Part shown: positions 18,652-45,260 of the stretch, one piece after another
Numbering within the stretch: position 1 is the stretch's first letter
Layout of the letters: the number at the start of each line of letters is the position of its first letter
NCBI GenBank assembly: GCA_951406725.2
Contig: OX597821.1
Location: 74,028,001-74,092,000, forward strand
Length of the DNA stretch: 64,000 nt
Direction of reading: 5' to 3'
Source: Octopus vulgaris
Lineage: Eukaryota
Notes under the pieces: model-generated
Seen by the model: the letters and a program-made list of their open reading frames with translations, nothing else
Database searches by the model: none
Told to the model about the DNA's origin: nothing
Program-made: the position numbers and the translations under genes

Positions 18652-19345
18652 TAAATCATATTATCTCTGGCTGCCCAGTCCTGGCTAAGAAGGAATATAT
18701 TCAGACACGACAGAGTTGGGACCTACATACACTGGAAGGTATGCCAACATTATGGAATAACAACAGAAAAAAGATGGTATGGGACCTACATACACTGGAA
18801 GGTATGCCAACATTATGGAATAACAACAGAAAAAAGATGGTATAGGCACACATCAGAAAAGGTCACAGAAAACGAGAAAGCAACCATACTTTGGGATATG
18901 CCGATACACACAGATAGAGAAATTAAGGCCAACAGACCAGATATAGTTGTCAGAGATCATGAAGGAAAAAAATGCTTTCTAATTGATGTATCAATACCAG
19001 CAGATGACAACGTGTCTCTAAAAGAAATGGAGAAACTTTCAAAATACAAGGACCTGGAAATAGAGGTAACCAGAATGTGGAATCTAAAAGCAGAAACAAT
19101 TCCTATCATAGTAGGTGCATTAGGCATTATAAAAAAATATTCAGATAAATACATAACAAAAACACCAGGACTTACAAACACATGTAACATACAGAAAATT
19201 GCACTACTAGGCACTGCACACATCCTACGCAGAACACTTTCCATACAATAACCATCAGAGAATCACAACAAATCACAGCACATACCCAAGGCACACAGAG
19301 CTGCGCTTGGTAGTGAAGTGAAAGCACGCTATAAAAATAAAACTA

Positions 19346-19436: not shown

Positions 19437-19841
19437 GTTAATCTGGAAGCGCGTCCCCCAGGGAAGAGCCAGCCTGGGATCGAAAAGTCATCAACTGGCA
19501 CAAACTCTTCTCCGAATACGGACATGGATGGTCACTTGAACGGGAAATCCCCCAACTCGAGCCCTCCAAGTTCACCACCACAACCACCACAGAAAGAAAA
19601 ATGTAAGCGGAACAAATGGACCCGAGAAGAGTATAAAGAAGTAATATACGCTTATTACTATGCATTAGGTAGGCCATCTCAAGAGAGACACACCGCAAAC
19701 TCTTACAGTATATGGAGAACACGGAATCAAGACAGTAGGCCCTATTTGGACGAGAACAAATTAGCAAATGTGAGGAGGGATATCCTTAGAAATAACAGAC
19801 TCACAGACATTGAAATAAGCACGCAACGGAAAATGACATAA
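19434..19841 (+). pseudogene. N-terminal (Myb-like DNA-binding) part of the Dong/R4 ORF, separated from the RT ORF by one frameshift
   Basis: KWTREEYKEVIYAYYYA...LDENKLANVRRDILRNNRLTDIEI resembles R4/Dong N-termini. Overlaps the open RT frame at 19814-19841. Confidence 0.75.
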
Positions 19842-20041
19842 ATATAAGACACAAAGGAAATGAAGAATCAGATGAACAGTATAGCCCGCCACGAGGCTTA
19901 ATTGAAAGACTGCCATCTAACCAAAGTACGCAAAGGCCTGAGGATACAAGAAATTCTATTGTACCTGTTAAAGATAGCCATGAAAACGAAAAAACAACAG
20001 TAACTGAAGATCTCGCATTTGCTGAAGAACACAGAGAGTCT

Positions 20042-23000
20042 ATGGCAGAAATGAGGCAGAAAATCCTGAATACGCTTGACGTTGTAAGTCATACAAGTAT
20101 GAATGATAGAGAACCACTTCATAAACTCTCAAATACAAACCAAAATAAAAAACAAATCCAAATTGGCAACTATGTAACAAATGAAATAATACGAGAATTA
20201 AAACCTGATTTTACTGAGTTAAATGAAATTATTTACGCTTCTGCTAGGGCAATTGAAACCAGCTGTATGCCCCCGAAAAAACAAAGAAAACAAAACCTGG
20301 GAAGAAATCAAACCTGGAGAAGTAAAATTGAAAAAGAGATTGAATTTATGAGAGGGGAAATATCAATATTAAATGAACTAATATGTGGAAATGATGTAAG
20401 ATCCAGAACAAGAAGAAAGATGAAGAGAAAATTTGGATCCTCACCAAGAGAAGAACTGATATCAATAAAAGAAACGCTGAAACAAAAAGTCCAAGCAAAA
20501 GCCCAAAGAATACGAAGATTTGAGAAGAGAAACAAGTTTTACAAGCAACATAATCTGTTCACATCCAATGCCAAAAAATTCTACAGAGAAATAGAGAAGG
20601 AGAAAGTAACCGTTAAAGACCCCCCTCCCATGGAAGAAGTTCAAAACTTTTGGAAAAGGATTTGGAGTGACAAGAAGACGTACAACATAAATGCAGACTG
20701 GATTATACAAACTGAAGGATCCTACCAAAATTTACAACAACAAGCATGGGAAGACATCACAATAGCAGACCTAAGAAAGGCGCTCACGAAGGCCCATAAT
20801 TGGAAATCCCCCGGTAAAGATAGGGTGCCGAATTTCTGGCTCGCATCGCTCCCATGCGCACACGGTAAGCTAGTTCAGCTGCTCAATGGAATTATGAGAG
20901 ACCCAAAGAAAACACCTGAATGGTTAGCAAGTGGCATTACTTACCTACTCCCAAAGAATAACGGAACCAACCTTCCAAAAAACTATCGGCCTATAACCTG
21001 TCTATCCACCACGTATAAAATCCTAACATCTATCCTGGCGGAGAAAACATATGCATTCATGGAGAAGAACGATATTTTCCCCATTGAACAAAAAGGGTGC
21101 CGCCGAGGCTCTTACGGATGCAAAGATCAACTGCTAATCAATCGTATAATCCTTGAGAACTGTCACAACAAGCGCAGAAATCTCAGCACCGCATGGATTG
21201 ACTATAAAAAGGCCTTCGACAGTATACCGCATCCATGGATCTTGAGATCGTTGGACATCTTCAAAATTTCCCCTGTGATTTCAAACTTCCTGAAGCACAA
21301 TATGTCGTTGTGGAATACAAATCTCCAATTATACCACTCTAATGGAGTACTTGCCTCAGAAAATATAAACATCAACTGTGGAATTTTTCAAGGTGACTCA
21401 CTTTCACCTTTAATATTCTGCATAGTCCTAATACCCCTTACAAGTGAATTAAACAGAACAGGGTATGGGTATAAAATTGCCAATAAAAAAATAAGCCATC
21501 TATTTTATATGGATGACTTAAAACTTTATGGTAAAGACAATAATGAACTTGAAGGCCTATTGCGCACCGTGAAAGCATTCAGCGATGACATCGGGATGGA
21601 GTTTGGACTTGAGAAGTGTGCCAAGGCCACTTTCCAGAAAGGGAAAGTGAAGACCACAAATTCAGTCGTGTTAGATGTTGACACAGTCATAAGAGAGCTT
21701 GAGCAAGAACAAACATACAAATATTTAGGGATAAATGAAGGCTCTGGTATTCAGCATGCAAGCATGAAAGAGAAAATCAGGAAGGAATGTTATAGGATAG
21801 TTCGTGCAGTCCTGAAATCTGAACTAAATGCACGTAACAAGGTGTTAGCTATACATTTCTTAGCAGTTCCAGTTGTTACTTATAGCTACAATGTGTTGAA
21901 CTGGAATATGAGTGAAGTAAAGAATATAGATAGGAAAATACGCAAGCTGCTGAGTTGTAATAGGATGCACCACCCAAAGGCAGACGTAGATCGCCTTTAC
22001 CTTCCCAGAGCCCAAGGAGGTCGAGGCCTGATCCAATTTGAACTAGCTTACAAAACAACCACAATTGGACTGGCCAAATATCTCGAAATATCGAATGACT
22101 GGATGCTAAAGCTCGTGGAAAATCACGAGAGACGAAAGAAGCTTCATTCTATCATCAAGGAAAGCAAAATATTTGCTATTGATCTCGTGCAGGATACCCA
22201 AACTGAACAACCCGAGGGAAGTACGGCAACTATTGTTGCAAAGAAGGTGAAAATGATGGCAATGAAAAAAGCGCACGAGCAATTGGCTGCTAGGTGGGAG
22301 GAGAAACCTCTGCACGGCAAATATGTGACCCGCAGCAAACAAGCTGATGTTGACCAGAAGCAAACCCATCAGTGGCTACGGAGCTCAGGGCTAAAAGCAG
22401 AGAGCGAAGGTTTCATCCTGGCTGCTCAAGACCAAAGCCTATTAACCCGGAACTACCAGGCCAACGTGATGAAAAATGGAGCAGACCCAAAATGCCGATT
22501 CTGCAACGACATGATTGAAACAGTGGACCACCTAATCTCTGGATGTAAAGTCTTAGCACCAGTGGAGTATAAATTAAGACATGACAGAGTTGGCCAATAT
22601 CTCCACTGGCTAATAAGTCGGCATTACAATATCAAAACTGCTGACAAGTGGTATAATCACCACCCTGAGGCTGTAACTGAAGGAGAAAATGTAACCATTC
22701 TGTGGGACTTTCCAGTACATACAGACCGAACCATCAAGGCCAATAAACCAGATATTGTTGTGAAAGACCAAAACAATAAAGTTTGCTTATTGATCGACAT
22801 GAGCATCCCCTGTGATCATAATATCTCAGCGAAAGAGTTTGACAAGCTCAGAAAATATAAAGACCTACTCATTGAAATTGAGAAAATGTGGCATCTCAAG
22901 GCGGTTACAATACCAGTGATCGTAGGAGCACTAGGAATGATCAAGAAGGGAACCGAAAATTATATGAGAATGATCCCTGGCTTACCATCCCTGCAAGAAG

Positions 23001-23059
23001 TGCAAAAGATAGTCTTAACTGGTACATCACACGTATTGAGAAGAGCATTGTCGACGTGA
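20042..23059 (+). CDS. Reverse transcriptase / CCHC zinc knuckle / restriction-like endonuclease polyprotein (1005 aa; C-terminal part of a longer frameshifted ORF)
   Basis: Motifs WKSPGKD, NYRPITCL, WIDYKKAFDS, GIFQGDSLSPL, FYMDDLKLY, YKYLG, CRFC-x8-H-x4-C, RHD and KPDIVV...LIDMS...KFDKLRKY. The frame is open upstream to about 19814. Confidence 0.95.
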   Translation: MAEMRQKILNTLDVVSHTSMNDREPLHKLSNTNQNKKQIQIGNYVTNEIIRELKPDFTELNEIIYASARAIETSCMPPKKQRKQNLGRNQTWRSKIEKEIEFMRGEISILNELICGNDVRSRTRRKMKRKFGSSPREELISIKETLKQKVQAKAQRIRRFEKRNKFYKQHNLFTSNAKKFYREIEKEKVTVKDPPPMEEVQNFWKRIWSDKKTYNINADWIIQTEGSYQNLQQQAWEDITIADLRKALTKAHNWKSPGKDRVPNFWLASLPCAHGKLVQLLNGIMRDPKKTPEWLASGITYLLPKNNGTNLPKNYRPITCLSTTYKILTSILAEKTYAFMEKNDIFPIEQKGCRRGSYGCKDQLLINRIILENCHNKRRNLSTAWIDYKKAFDSIPHPWILRSLDIFKISPVISNFLKHNMSLWNTNLQLYHSNGVLASENININCGIFQGDSLSPLIFCIVLIPLTSELNRTGYGYKIANKKISHLFYMDDLKLYGKDNNELEGLLRTVKAFSDDIGMEFGLEKCAKATFQKGKVKTTNSVVLDVDTVIRELEQEQTYKYLGINEGSGIQHASMKEKIRKECYRIVRAVLKSELNARNKVLAIHFLAVPVVTYSYNVLNWNMSEVKNIDRKIRKLLSCNRMHHPKADVDRLYLPRAQGGRGLIQFELAYKTTTIGLAKYLEISNDWMLKLVENHERRKKLHSIIKESKIFAIDLVQDTQTEQPEGSTATIVAKKVKMMAMKKAHEQLAARWEEKPLHGKYVTRSKQADVDQKQTHQWLRSSGLKAESEGFILAAQDQSLLTRNYQANVMKNGADPKCRFCNDMIETVDHLISGCKVLAPVEYKLRHDRVGQYLHWLISRHYNIKTADKWYNHHPEAVTEGENVTILWDFPVHTDRTIKANKPDIVVKDQNNKVCLLIDMSIPCDHNISAKEFDKLRKYKDLLIEIEKMWHLKAVTIPVIVGALGMIKKGTENYMRMIPGLPSLQEVQKIVLTGTSHVLRRALST

Positions 23060-26738: not shown

Positions 26739-26803
<65 letters not shown>

Positions 26804-26805
<2 letters not shown>

Positions 26806-27012
26806 TTAATCCAAACATGAAAACACAAAGAGAAAACAGAACAACGCGGGGACGTGGAACAAGTATAGTGTTATTAGACGCTCAGGAAAGGAAAGAAAGA
26901 AGGAGGATTTAACGTTTCGAGCGGAGCTCTTCGTCAGAAACATAGAAAAAGGAAAGGTCCAAGGAAGGGAAGACGGGGAAAGAAAATCGCCAACGATACA
27001 CACGCGGTCACA
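26804..27012 (-). mobile_element. ~200-bp hammerhead-bearing interspersed repeat (copy 1)
   Basis: Starts AGTTAATCCAAACA and ends GGTCACAT on +. Copies at 28457-28660 and 35497-35680, a distant relative at about 1905-2085. All sit in TA/TG microsatellites. Confidence 0.8.
26907..26941 (-). ncRNA. Ultra-minimal hammerhead-like motif (35 nt)
   Basis: GTTT-CTGACGA-A-GAGC-TCC-GCTC-GAAA-CG-TT-AAAT; stem III would need to form in a dimer via the AACGTT palindrome. Confidence 0.55.
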
Positions 27013-27035
27013 TATATATGTGTGTGTGTGTGTGT

Positions 27036-27870
27036 TAAATAAACTGAGACAACAAAGCCAAAGCTGTGTGGAATTTATAGGACATTTATAAAGAGAAAGT
27101 TAGTCTTACAGCTGTTTCTGGGATATTAGGGAAATCCCTTCATCAGAGACGATGTGAGAGAGTTGAATGGAGGGAAATATAAGGAGTTACTTTGGAAAAA
27201 GATAGAAGGATAAATATATGAAGTTTAAAGGGAGATAAGAGAATAAAAATAAAAATATATATAGGACGTTACAGCTGCAGTTCCATTATCCGAGGAAAGT
27301 GCTGCCTTGAATGGGTAGATGTGTTTCTTGTTCATGGCATGTAGATTCCGATAGGAGTTCATGTTTTGTTATTACGAGTGGATAACGTGGAGACATAAAT
27401 TCTATGTGCCGCCCATTCAAAGGGGTTCCTGTGGTGTGAAAGAAATTTTGAGAACGTATGGGATAGGTAGATAGAGAGTAGAGAATAGACATGTATGTTA
27501 GAAGGAGGATAGTATTGGTCTAAAAGGAAAACAAAGAAAGAAAAGAGTGCTAGATAGTGGTCACGATATGAAGGGGGGGATAAGAGAGGACTATCAGTAG
27601 AATAGGAGGAGGGATAGAAAGAAGAGATAAGAATGTAAAGAAGGAATATGTGTGAGAAGTGGGAGGTGGTGGTGATATGTTTGAAAGGCAGTAAGGTGGA
27701 GAAAATGGTACGGCGGGGTGGGTGTAATAAAGTGATACGTAAACCTTAGAAAGGAAGGGGCAGATAATAAGATTTACTGGTCAAGTTTCAGGTATTTATT
27801 GAACTAACTAAAGTGATAGTAGGGTCTGATGAATCAGAGACAGAAAGAAATATATGTATAGAGAAGCACG
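27036..27870 (-). mobile_element. PLE-like repeat with hammerhead; partial second copy at 35716-35908
   Basis: 27113-27288 is visibly similar to 35716-35908; flanked by dinucleotide repeats. Confidence 0.55.
27103..27150 (-). ncRNA. Minimal type I hammerhead ribozyme
   Basis: Minus strand GTCT-CTGATGA-A-GGGAT...ATCCC-A-GAAA-CAGCTG-TA-AGAC; palindromic loop III, GUA site. Confidence 0.7.
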
Positions 27871-27881
27871 CACGAGCGTAT

Positions 27882-27924
<43 letters not shown>

Positions 27925-35464: not shown

Positions 35465-35496
<32 letters not shown>

Positions 35497-35501
<5 letters not shown>

Positions 35502-35680
35502 ATCCAAACAAAAATGCACAAAAAAAACACAACAACGCGAGGACGTGGAACAAATATAGTATTATTGGACGCTCAGGAAAGAAGGAGGGCTTAACGTTTC
35601 GAGCGGAGCTCTTCATCGGAAACATAGGAGAAGGGAAGACAGAGGAAAAAAAATCACCAACGGTACACACGAGGTCACAT
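35497..35680 (-). mobile_element. ~200-bp hammerhead-bearing interspersed repeat (copy 3)
   Basis: Similar to 26804-27012; core reads CCGATGA. Confidence 0.8.
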
Positions 35681-35682
35681 TT

Positions 35683-35715
<33 letters not shown>

Positions 35716-35904
35716 ATGTTTCTGGGATATTATGGATATCCCTTCATCAGAGGCGATGTGAGATGGTTAAATAGAGGTAAATAGTTGAGTTCGAAATAAG
35801 GAATTATTATGGAAAAGGAAGAGATAGGGAGTACAGAGGGAAATGAGAGAATGAAAGCAGAAATAAAAATATAAAATATATAAAGAATTTGTAGTCGCTG
35901 TTCC

Positions 35905-35964
<60 letters not shown>

Positions 35965-36084
35965 GAGGGCATTATTACACATACATGCCACACGCTAAGA
36001 GGGGCATTAGTCGTTTCTACCAAAAAATTTTACTAATCATACCCAATGCAATTTTTCAAAGCAAGACATTTAAAAAATGAATTT

Positions 36085-36146
36085 AGTCTTGTATCACCTG
36101 TGATTTCGTACTTACCGCAGTTGCGACCGTACTCATCAGCAAGACT
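36085..36146 (-). ncRNA. Type I hammerhead ribozyme (inverted copy of 36547-36608)
   Basis: Reverse complement of the 36547-36608 motif. Confidence 0.85.
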
Positions 36147-36546
36147 GATTCTGAACATATCATAAATAAACGACCTCGCACCGTCAAAGCCGAACAGCTA
36201 TCTGTTCTACTCCAACGAAGCACATGGGGAAGTTTACATATAATACATCCGGTAAATGGCAGGCTTCTTGGAATTGCATTTCGGGTAGGAAAAGTTTTTT
36301 CGGAATAAAATTATTTAACAATTAAGGATAACTTCTTAATAAGGAATCTTAACAAGAAATTATCAGGTAGATAGCGTGAAAACCCTCATAAGAGAAAAAT
36401 TTCGAAAATAATTCTTTCTTATTGAACATATTAATTTATATATAGAGGGCATTATTACACATACATGCCACACACTAAGAGGGACATTAGTCGTTTCTAC
36501 CAAAAAATTTTACTAATCATATCATATTTATGATATGTTCAGAATC

Positions 36547-36608
36547 AGTCTTGCTGATGAGTACGGTCGCAACTGCGGTAAGTACGAAATCACAGGTGAT
36601 ACAAGACT
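36547..36608 (+). ncRNA. Type I hammerhead ribozyme (canonical core)
   Basis: AGTCTTG-CTGATGA-GTAC...GTAC-GAAA-TCAC-AG-GTGA-TA-CAAGACT: stem I 7 bp, stem II GTAC/GTAC, stem III ATCAC/GTGAT, AUA cleavage triplet. Confidence 0.85.
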
Positions 36609-36862
36609 AAATTCATTTTTTAAATGTCTTGCTTTGAAAAATTGCATTGGGTATGATTAGTAAAATTTTTTTCATACACAAACTATTATATTTAATAAAT
36701 CTAATTTGCTTATCCTCACAATTGCCTTAATTTGATCCCTCTTAAAGTCATTCTTTACCCCGTGAAATGTATCCCTTGTAAAGACATCCGAGTCTATATT
36801 TGAATTATTTGAACACTACAAAGTTCCTTCTATACTGAGAATCTCTGGATTTCAACTGTGGA

Positions 36863-38000: not shown

Positions 38001-38286
38001 AATTTGTACGGAAGTCAGAAACCATTGTGAATATTATTCAAGAGTTCACTTACGTAATTCTAGTATATTGAAAAATCTGAAAATTCAGAAAAATTATATT
38101 AATTCAGCATTTTGTATCTTTTCATTTGTCTTGCTCGCCCACTTCTGGCGTTTGCTGAATTTTCTTGAGAACGATCTTTTCTTAGTGGTCAGACTATATG
38201 GGGTCTACCTCTAGCGTAATGGATGTCCACTTAGTGGTCATCCCTCTTATATGTATATACATACATACATACATACATATACATAC

Positions 38287-38317
<31 letters not shown>

Positions 38318-38577
38318 ATAGAAATATGTTACAAAAAAAAATAGAAACTACACGTGGAAATGTAAGGGTAAAGTAAGAAAAATCAACGAAAATGCACATT
38401 GTAAATAAAAAAAGAAAAGGCTTTTTATGAAAGGTAACGACAGATATATACAATTAGATGATCTGAGGTAGTAATAAATGTAATAAGAGGAAACAACTAA
38501 GATATTTAGAAACACTCGAATTGCGTAAGTGAACTCTTGAATAATATTCACAATGGTTTCTGACTTCCGTACAAATT
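38001..38577. repeat. 60-bp inverted repeat (38001-38060 / 38518-38577)
   Basis: One visible mismatch between the arms. Confidence 0.85.
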
Positions 38578-45196: not shown

Positions 45197-45260
45197 CACC
45201 TGATGAATGACAGTGACTCGAAAATTTGAAGTAGTTAGCAGCCATGAAACGATCGTAGTG
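45197..45260 (+). ncRNA. Minimal type I hammerhead ribozyme
   Basis: CAC-CTGATGA-ATG...CAT-GAAA-CGATCG-TA-GTG; palindromic loop III. Lies in an AT-rich PLE-like repeat at about 45165-45485. Confidence 0.65.

What the first reader, a model, noticed from the sequence alone, without database searches (positions are those of the whole stretch)
35954..36671. Pair of fully canonical hammerhead ribozymes in inverted orientation inside a Penelope-like repeat
Seen: a type I hammerhead with intact CUGAUGA/GAAA core, 7-bp stem I, stable stems II and III and an AUA site at 36547-36608(+), plus its exact inverted copy at 36085-36146(-). They lie within a 147-bp inverted and an 88-bp direct repeat. Known: PLE pseudo-LTRs carry hammerheads and occur in tandem and inverted arrangements. 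Inference: transcripts of either strand could self-cleave, or the arms could pair into dsRNA that blocks both. The near-identical arms suggest a young event.
Basis: partly seen in the sequence, partly recalled or inferred. Interest (0 to 1): 0.75.

Follow-up and report, generated by a model that had tools for sequence, protein, structure and literature searches.

The report
Back-to-back insertion of a hammerhead retrozyme
The two mirror-image ribozyme motifs are real, but they are two arms of one insertion of a common 480-base non-coding jumping repeat, a known kind that is likely pasted in by Penelope-type enzymes, and at this site the two motifs are predicted to block each other rather than work as a pair.

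Summary
In detail: type I hammerheads lie at 36547-36608(+) and 36146-36085(-), in a perfect 147-bp inverted repeat beside an 88-bp direct repeat. They belong to a non-coding, strongly folding 480-nt unit, not to the pseudo-LTR of a coding element. Its superfamily has 764 ribozyme cores genome-wide. Stems I and II covary (13 of 21 pairs change on both sides), so the fold was selected. Inversion is routine: 60 of 110 arrays are head-to-head, mostly ending in (TA)n at two fixed points, one per arm in 47 of 50. A young Hydra-clade Penelope element shows the same footprint (5 of 5), and one array is fused head-to-head to it. Corrections: stem III is self-complementary and predicted unstable in a monomer; any transcript spanning both arms is predicted to bury both ribozymes in a duplex; perfect arm identity is unremarkable (family average 1.1% difference). 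Verdict: a new member of the animal non-LTR retrozymes with a textbook Penelope-type inverted insertion; opposite-strand hammerhead pairs were reported in 2014. This scan noted similar families earlier in this genome. Cleavage, circles and expression are untested.

The parts
35907..35953 (.). (TA)n microsatellite, insertion target abutting the 3' end of the left arm
   Evidence: TRF 35907-35964, overlapping the unit's TATA end; 142 of 156 family 3' ends at the two fixed points abut (TA)n
35954..36433 (-). One complete 480-nt non-coding retrozyme unit (q1=36433, q480=35954), ending at the family's 'short' 3' end point
   Evidence: folds at -131 kcal/mol, z -6.15, 0 of 100 shuffles as good
36085..36146 (-). 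Type I hammerhead of the left arm; predicted cut after 36092
36434..36521 (-).
   Evidence: 2 differences from the full unit
36522..36524 (.). 3-nt junction between the 5' ends of the two head-to-head arms
   Evidence: of 60 junctions: 30 overlap, 7 blunt, 23 with inserted bases
36525..36671 (+). Inverted arm (q266-412); stops short of both normal 3' end points and has no (TA)n, likely shortened after insertion
36547..36608 (+). Type I hammerhead of the right arm; predicted cut after A36601
36672..36866 (+). Right flank: an older, unrelated repeat (75-84% identical to 39 other scored copies), not part of the element

Best explanation
This is one two-armed, head-to-head insertion of a non-coding 480-nt hammerhead-bearing repeat family (an animal non-LTR retrozyme), likely written into a (TA)n tract by the enzyme of a Penelope-like element acting in trans. 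Shown: the unit, its genome-wide family, the covarying ribozyme fold, (TA)n targeting, two fixed 3' end points about 125 nt apart, runs longer than two units, and outward-facing arms. Inferred: tandem source arrays are transcribed; hammerheads, probably pairing as double hammerheads through the self-complementary stem III, cut the RNA to unit length, and it may circularise. A dimeric Penelope RT-endonuclease then cuts both DNA strands and primes cDNA from each at one of two internal start points, and the two cDNAs join at their 5'-truncated ends. The best candidate enzyme is the young Hydra-clade element. The inverted ribozyme pair is a by-product. This locus has one sense ribozyme per strand, cannot excise a monomer, and a transcript across both arms would form a 147-bp duplex that buries both, so it is probably a dead-end copy.
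For: Family: 40 of 40 scored loci hold the unit at 90-100%; 764 matches to CUGANGA-N12-34-GAAAUCACAGGUGAU, control 0. Selection on the fold: in 37 aligned variants, 92.9% of cells pair against 79.7% shuffled, 13 of 21 pairs change on both sides, covariation 0.448 against at most 0.09 for slid controls. Stem I pairs 551 of 588 cells over 98 types; shuffle maximum 439. Position 17 is A/C/U in 201 of 201 copies, never G. Architecture: 60 of 110 arrays are head-to-head with both 3' ends outward; 156 of 169 3' ends fall at two points; longest same-strand run 1125 nt. One short and one long end in 47 of 50 classifiable arrays, p=2e-11. The young Hydra element has the same footprint in 5 of 5 head-to-head copies. 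L331 is a same-subfamily unit joined with no TA spacer to a 96-97% identical Hydra fragment, between two (TA)n tracts. Blocking: all hammerhead stem probabilities are 0.000 once both arms are in the RNA. Dimer: cofold gives the double hammerhead at -41.0 against 2 x -16.6, and for 63 of 90 types. Literature: PMC11167929 (both strands cut and extended, two internal starts, predicted dimer), PMC8557442 (tandem/inverted, tail at one end, (TA)n), PMC4209133, PMC7229834.
Against: No cleavage, circle or transcript was shown. The unit has no detectable sequence similarity to the ends of the Hydra or Neptune element (142 and 63 of 200 shuffles scored as well), and tail lengths differ (about 125 nt against about 71 nt). 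The L331 chimera is one case, and both its ends are the 'short' type, which breaks the short/long rule and also fits two insertions followed by a deletion. L134 joins an older subfamily to a Neptune fragment instead. In cis, the double-hammerhead stem III was part of the MFE in only 2 of 9 tandem pairs. Energy models ignore tertiary contacts, and a 4-bp stem III is longer than the 1-2 bp of invertebrate ribozymes reported to cut well as monomers (PMC7229834). The right arm here breaks the family end rule. Only 100 of 764 core positions were listed, and only Hydra and Neptune proteins were used as probes, so a coding parent may be unsampled.
Confidence: 0.72

Rival explanations
1. The locus is a 5'-truncated remnant of an autonomous Penelope-like element, and the 480-nt unit is its pseudo-LTR.
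For: The architecture is that of PLE insertions; hammerheads are typical of pLTRs; 664 of 764 core positions were not listed.
Against: Units join head to tail (q480 to q1) with no ORF between, up to 2.3 units. No Hydra or Neptune ORF is contiguous in sense in the fetched family loci. ORF scans of L001-L060 and L133-L152 found only neighbouring, separate elements. A coding parent should leave endonuclease-coding sequence just upstream in many copies.
Confidence: 0.1
2. The inverted pair is a functional device at this locus: both strands self-cleave, or cleavage and duplex formation act as a switch on a host transcript.
For: Both cores are intact and identical. A minus-strand RNA starting between the arms keeps stems I and II in the model (P 0.87 and 0.99).
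Against: Such pairs are a common by-product (22 of 110 arrays) and were noted in 2014. Arm identity is as expected for the age. Antisense is made first on either strand, and the duplex is -250 kcal/mol.
Confidence: 0.05
3. The insertion was copied from linear, uncleaved multimeric RNA or by repeated re-priming; the ribozyme was selected in source elements for another step and no circle is involved.
For: In the one PLE reconstituted in vitro, ribozyme cleavage was not needed and uncut RNA was the main template (PMC11167929). Arrays are short (at most 2.3 units). Only 1 of 9 Xenopus retrozyme dimers cleaved.
Against: Only 11 of 110 arrays have two same-strand intact cores, yet more-than-unit runs are common and the circularised monomer is strongly structured (z -4.3, crude shuffle). 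This does not exclude a few long source arrays. This rival concerns only the template step and is compatible with the rest of the best explanation.
Confidence: 0.35
4. The inversion is an assembly or library artefact, or a later DNA-level fold-back.
For: A perfect 147-bp inverted repeat; no independent contig bridges either junction by 31 letters on both sides.
Against: 60 other-breakpoint inversions with ordered end points in the same family and in the Hydra element. A run of another study has an exact contig over 36654-36752, 18 letters into the arm.
Confidence: 0.04

Closest known systems
Animal non-LTR retrozymes (Cervera and de la Pena 2020, PMC7229834, passages seen; Li, Clavereau and Pollet 2026, bioRxiv 10.64898/2026.07.22.740005, parts 1-3 of 5 read)
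   Same: Non-coding, AT-rich, head-to-tail units each with one type I hammerhead; strongly folding; proposed to depend on PLEs.
   Different: Unit 460-495 nt (mussel 350-390; vertebrate range 51-972). Arrays are short and mostly two-armed, with fixed ends in (TA)n. Stem II has an inner hairpin and stem III a 5-bp palindrome. Circular RNA and cleavage are not shown here. This locus fails Li et al.'s 'active' criterion of two consecutive ribozyme-bearing units.
EN+ Penelope-like element insertions, especially the Hydra clade (Craig et al. 2021, PMC8557442; passages, section 11 and the metadata supplement seen)
   Same: Partial tandem plus inverted 5'-truncated copy, tail often at one end only, (TA)n targeting, hammerhead near the 3' end.
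   Different: No ORF; tail about 125 nt rather than 30-40 nt; no sequence similarity to the ends of the young Hydra or Neptune element of this genome.
PLE hammerheads (Cervera and de la Pena 2014, PMC4209133; parts 1-2 of 4 read)
   Same: Type I, palindromic helix III read as suited to dimers; many consensus families with compensatory changes; dual motifs 100-700 bp apart on opposite strands already described in Schistosoma.
   Different: This motif is not minimal: 7-bp stem I, 4-bp stem III possible in the monomer, and no extra base between positions 9 and 10.1.
Poseidon element of Anolis, in vitro mechanism (Frangieh et al. 2024, PMC11167929; parts 1-2 of 4 read)
   Same: AT-rich targets, both strands cut and extended, two internal RT start points that define a tail.
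   Different: That study saw no strand difference in start site; here the two arms use different points in 47 of 50 arrays. The template here is non-coding.

Membership tests
Type I hammerhead ribozyme | CUGANGA and GAAA core with NUH cleavage triplet | tested here: met
   H17 is A 183, C 15, U 3, G 0 of 201 copies
Type I hammerhead ribozyme | Stems I and II supported by covariation | tested here: met
   6 of 7 stem I pairs and 7 of 10 stem II pairs change on both sides in 37 variants
Type I hammerhead ribozyme | Stem III formed | tested here: inconclusive
   Invariant in the alignment, largely by construction of the search; monomer P>0.5 in 1 of 90 types, dimer form in 63 of 90 cofolds
Type I hammerhead ribozyme | Match to an Rfam hammerhead model | tested here: not met
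   no hammerhead family at gathering score or at E<=10; a limit of the models, not of the fold
Type I hammerhead ribozyme | Self-cleavage | not testable with these tools
   only contigs were available, no raw reads
Animal non-LTR retrozyme | Non-coding head-to-tail unit of a few hundred nt with one type I hammerhead per unit | tested here: met
Animal non-LTR retrozyme | Dispersed multi-copy family without its own RT | tested here: met
   764 cores; no contiguous Hydra or Neptune ORF in fetched loci; 664 positions not listed
Animal non-LTR retrozyme | [quoted passage not shown] 'active' criterion), family level | tested here: met
   11 of 110 arrays; this locus itself does not meet it
Animal non-LTR retrozyme | Expressed as monomeric linear and circular RNA | not testable with these tools
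   no holder on record as RNA; contigs cannot show circles or ends
Autonomous Penelope-like element | ORF with PLE RT and GIY-YIG endonuclease between pseudo-LTRs | tested here: not met
Penelope-type insertion footprint | Partial tandem, inverted 5' copy, optional tail, microsatellite target | tested here: met
   against PMC8557442
Hydra-dependent non-autonomous element | Shared terminal sequence or demonstrated mobilisation by the Hydra enzyme | tested here: inconclusive
   no shared sequence; same footprint; one ambiguous chimera

The most novel reading that the evidence does not exclude
A dimeric Hydra-clade Penelope enzyme copies one circular retrozyme RNA from both cut DNA strands, each subunit using a different one of two fixed start points. 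This would explain the 47-of-50 short/long rule, the more-than-unit arms and the inverted ribozyme pairs. Retrozyme-Hydra chimeras such as L331 would be two-template events, giving direct genomic evidence of which enzyme mobilises an animal retrozyme.
Probability: 0.3. Interest if true: 0.62.

Novelty: new member of a known kind. Interest (0 to 1): 0.33.

Why it matters
The locus itself is ordinary. The family is useful. How animal retrozymes get into genomes, and how Penelope elements make tandem and inverted insertions, are open questions in the papers read (PMC7229834, PMC8557442, PMC11167929). Here a small non-coding template, a young intact candidate enzyme in the same genome, a countable end rule and one chimera make both questions testable with an existing in vitro assay. 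The subfamily series is also a natural covariation set for a hammerhead form that Rfam misses. Searches for 'retrozyme' + 'octopus' and 'hammerhead ribozyme' + 'cephalopod' each listed 2 papers, none about such a family by title or abstract start; the library lacks most subscription journals.

Tried and rejected
Rfam: no hammerhead model matched. Expression: no RNA holder listed. Three runs guessed to be RNA hold pieces of the unit as contigs, some with other flanks, so they say nothing on this locus. No joints or ends pointing to splicing, circles or cleavage. Junction check: no contig bridges the inversion or the right junction by 31 letters on both sides; the right flank had no cover in 3 of 4 runs, which proves nothing. 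Intron idea (a GTAAGT donor-like word in loop II): rejected because most subfamilies lack it and no splice joint was seen. Short ORF from the AUG in the core: 17 codons, rejected. PLE RT fragment beside L010/L150: separated by (TA)n and about 250 nt of other sequence, so a separate insertion. Young Neptune-like family as parent: no hammerhead, no similarity. Young Hydra family as parent: its own unrelated hammerhead. Old Hydra-like family: no hammerhead link. Gene conversion between arms: not needed. Poseidon, Nematis and Naiad proteins were not used as probes. Rows dropped before the architecture counts: arrays under 79% identity to the window unit, under 150 nt, or within 150 nt of a locus edge, so the divergent subfamilies are left out; one array (L017) was mis-segmented; 10 of 60 head-to-head arrays, this locus included, had an end at neither fixed point and were left out of the 47-of-50 count. 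The first 30 loci were selected for holding a full unit, which biases towards long arrays. The 201 copies were de-duplicated by sequence context and may hold a few repeats. Craig et al.'s files with hammerhead structures were not among the one supplement held, and bioRxiv supplements were not seen; they may already list this motif.

Full report
Observation. The sequence at 36547-36608(+) reads as a type I hammerhead: 7-bp stem I, CUGAUGA, a 4-bp stem II carrying an inner hairpin, GAAA, stem III and an AUA site ending at 36601. The same 62 nt lie inverted at 36146-36085. The inverted repeat is 147 nt and perfect, and the direct repeat has a 480-nt period. Rfam reports no hammerhead family, at gathering score or at E<=10, so the proposed Rfam check fails although the motif is real.

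What the repeat is. The 480-nt period is one complete unit (35954-36433, minus strand), preceded by a 5'-truncated partial unit and a 3-nt junction to the inverted arm. The unit has no ORF of 120 codons or more and folds far better than shuffles (z -6.15). The genome held for this window has 2.8 Gb in 227 contigs. I take it to be octopus-like from my recollection of such repeat landscapes and from the scan's earlier notes; this was not tested. The exact core occurs 37 times, the stem II frame 57 times, and a looser core anchored on stem III 764 times, each with 0 for the reversed control. Fetched loci show many subfamilies at 67-99% identity, with units of about 460-495 nt. The exact ribozyme also occurs in contigs of runs carrying three different organism codes.

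Is the fold selected? Yes. In 37 variants chosen to represent the subfamilies, 92.9% of cells pair (shuffled 79.7%, 0 of 500 reached it), 13 of 21 pairs change on both sides, and the covariation score is 0.448 against at most 0.09 for slid controls. The count of changed pairs alone was reached by 39 of 500 shuffles. Over 98 distinct types, stem I pairs in 551 of 588 cells (slid 281, shuffle maximum 439). Position 17 was free in the search and is A, C or U in all 201 copies. Related copies are not independent events, but the subfamilies exchange G-C for A-U, U-A for C-G and U-A for G-U at the same positions. Stem III never varies, largely because I anchored on it.

How the ribozyme probably works. 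In the isolated 62-mer the core pairs with the 5' strand of stem III, and the hammerhead fold is 2.1 kcal/mol above the minimum (stem III probability 0.025). Two copies cofold into the double hammerhead at -41.0 kcal/mol against 2 x -16.6. Of 90 types, 1 has monomer stem III above 0.5 and 63 cofold as double hammerheads. In nine natural tandem pairs the dimer helix was part of the minimum in two and within about 6 kcal/mol in five; in two the test region folded otherwise by over 55 kcal/mol. This fits the dimer reading of PLE hammerheads (PMC4209133), but it is only a model, and monomer activity remains possible.

The inversion. Among 110 distinct arrays close enough to segment, 60 are head-to-head with both 3' ends outward. 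Of 169 3' ends, 88 fall at q465-480 and 68 at q108-132, and 142 of these 156 abut (TA)n; 5' ends are scattered; same-strand runs reach 1125 nt. Of 50 head-to-head arrays with both ends at fixed points, 47 have one of each (p=2e-11). Intact cores on both strands occur in 22 of 110 arrays. Craig et al. describe this architecture, with a tail often at one end only (PMC8557442). Frangieh et al. show both-strand cutting and extension and two internal start points (PMC11167929). Cervera and de la Pena noted opposite-strand hammerheads 100-700 bp apart in 2014. This locus is slightly atypical: its right arm stops at q412 against an older repeat with no (TA)n, which I infer is a later deletion. The locus is 1.3% from the family majority, within the 0.4-5.2% range of 54 arrays. 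Inverted arms differ by 1.1% family-wide, so zero differences in 147 nt is unremarkable.

Consequence at this site. The ribozymes face away from each other, so a transcript crossing the locus on either strand makes the antisense arm first. With both arms present all hammerhead stems fall to probability 0.000 (arm duplex -250 kcal/mol). An RNA starting between the arms keeps stems I and II on the minus strand. With one sense ribozyme per strand, the locus can neither excise a monomer nor form a double hammerhead in cis.

Which enzyme? Two young autonomous families were found. One is a two-ORF Neptune-like element without a hammerhead. The other is a 745-aa element with the RWK and DKT motifs and terminal CxxC and CxH motifs given for Hydra; its linker CxCX5C is imperfect in the copy read. 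Neither shares sequence with the unit. Hydra copies end in (TA)n at two points about 71 nt apart, one per arm in 5 of 5 head-to-head copies. At L331 a unit of this subfamily is fused head-to-head, through a few shared bases and no TA, to a 96-97% identical Hydra fragment, the whole lying between (TA)n tracts. Both its ends are the short type, so two insertions plus a deletion also fit. L134 joins an older subfamily to a Neptune fragment. I put Hydra as partner at about 0.45.

Comparison and verdict. It works like, and by the features testable here belongs to, the animal non-LTR retrozymes (PMC7229834; bioRxiv 10.64898/2026.07.22.740005). Expression, cleavage and circles were not testable. It is not shown to be an autonomous element's pseudo-LTR. 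Earlier notes of this scan describe 360-nt and 476-495-nt families in this genome with the same footprint; none matched this unit by sequence look-up. I had the two end points before reading them, and ran the formal short/long test afterwards. New member of a known kind; interest 0.33.

Noticed in passing
window 26800-27900(-) and 35470-35905(-): A second repeat family with two hammerhead-like cores 130-200 nt apart on one strand (27115-27146 and 26915-26937; 35719-35750 and a CCGAUGA variant near 35590-35612). The second copy is the left flank of this element.
   Followed up: partly
window 45200-45223(+): Another CUGAUGA...GAAA hammerhead-like core near a (TA)n tract.
   Followed up: no
window 19814-23059(+): Intact 1081-aa non-LTR retrotransposon ORF (RVT_1, E 1e-29), with a related C-terminal fragment at 18655-19251.
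   Followed up: partly
L331:1850-4010 (G000:C25:44454087-44456250): Retrozyme unit fused head-to-head to a 5'-truncated young Hydra-clade element between two (TA)n tracts.
   Followed up: yes
L134:1879-2826: Older-subfamily array joined head-to-head, without TA, to a Neptune-like ORF fragment that is interrupted by a mariner-like element (name recalled).
   Followed up: partly
L278:1800-2530: A different family with a unit of about 417 nt and a hammerhead that shares the same stem III word, also in head-to-head form ending in (TA)n.
   Followed up: partly
L183-L189: Very young two-ORF Neptune-like family (811-aa RT-endonuclease frame, many near-identical copies) with no hammerhead core found near its ends.
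   Followed up: partly
window 38001-38078 and 38500-38577: A 78-nt inverted repeat at 91%, 421 nt apart, without a hammerhead core.
   Followed up: no
window 36554-36560 with 36590-36595: The catalytic CUGAUGA can pair with the 5' strand of stem III, giving an inactive minimum-energy fold; possibly a built-in off state.
   Followed up: partly
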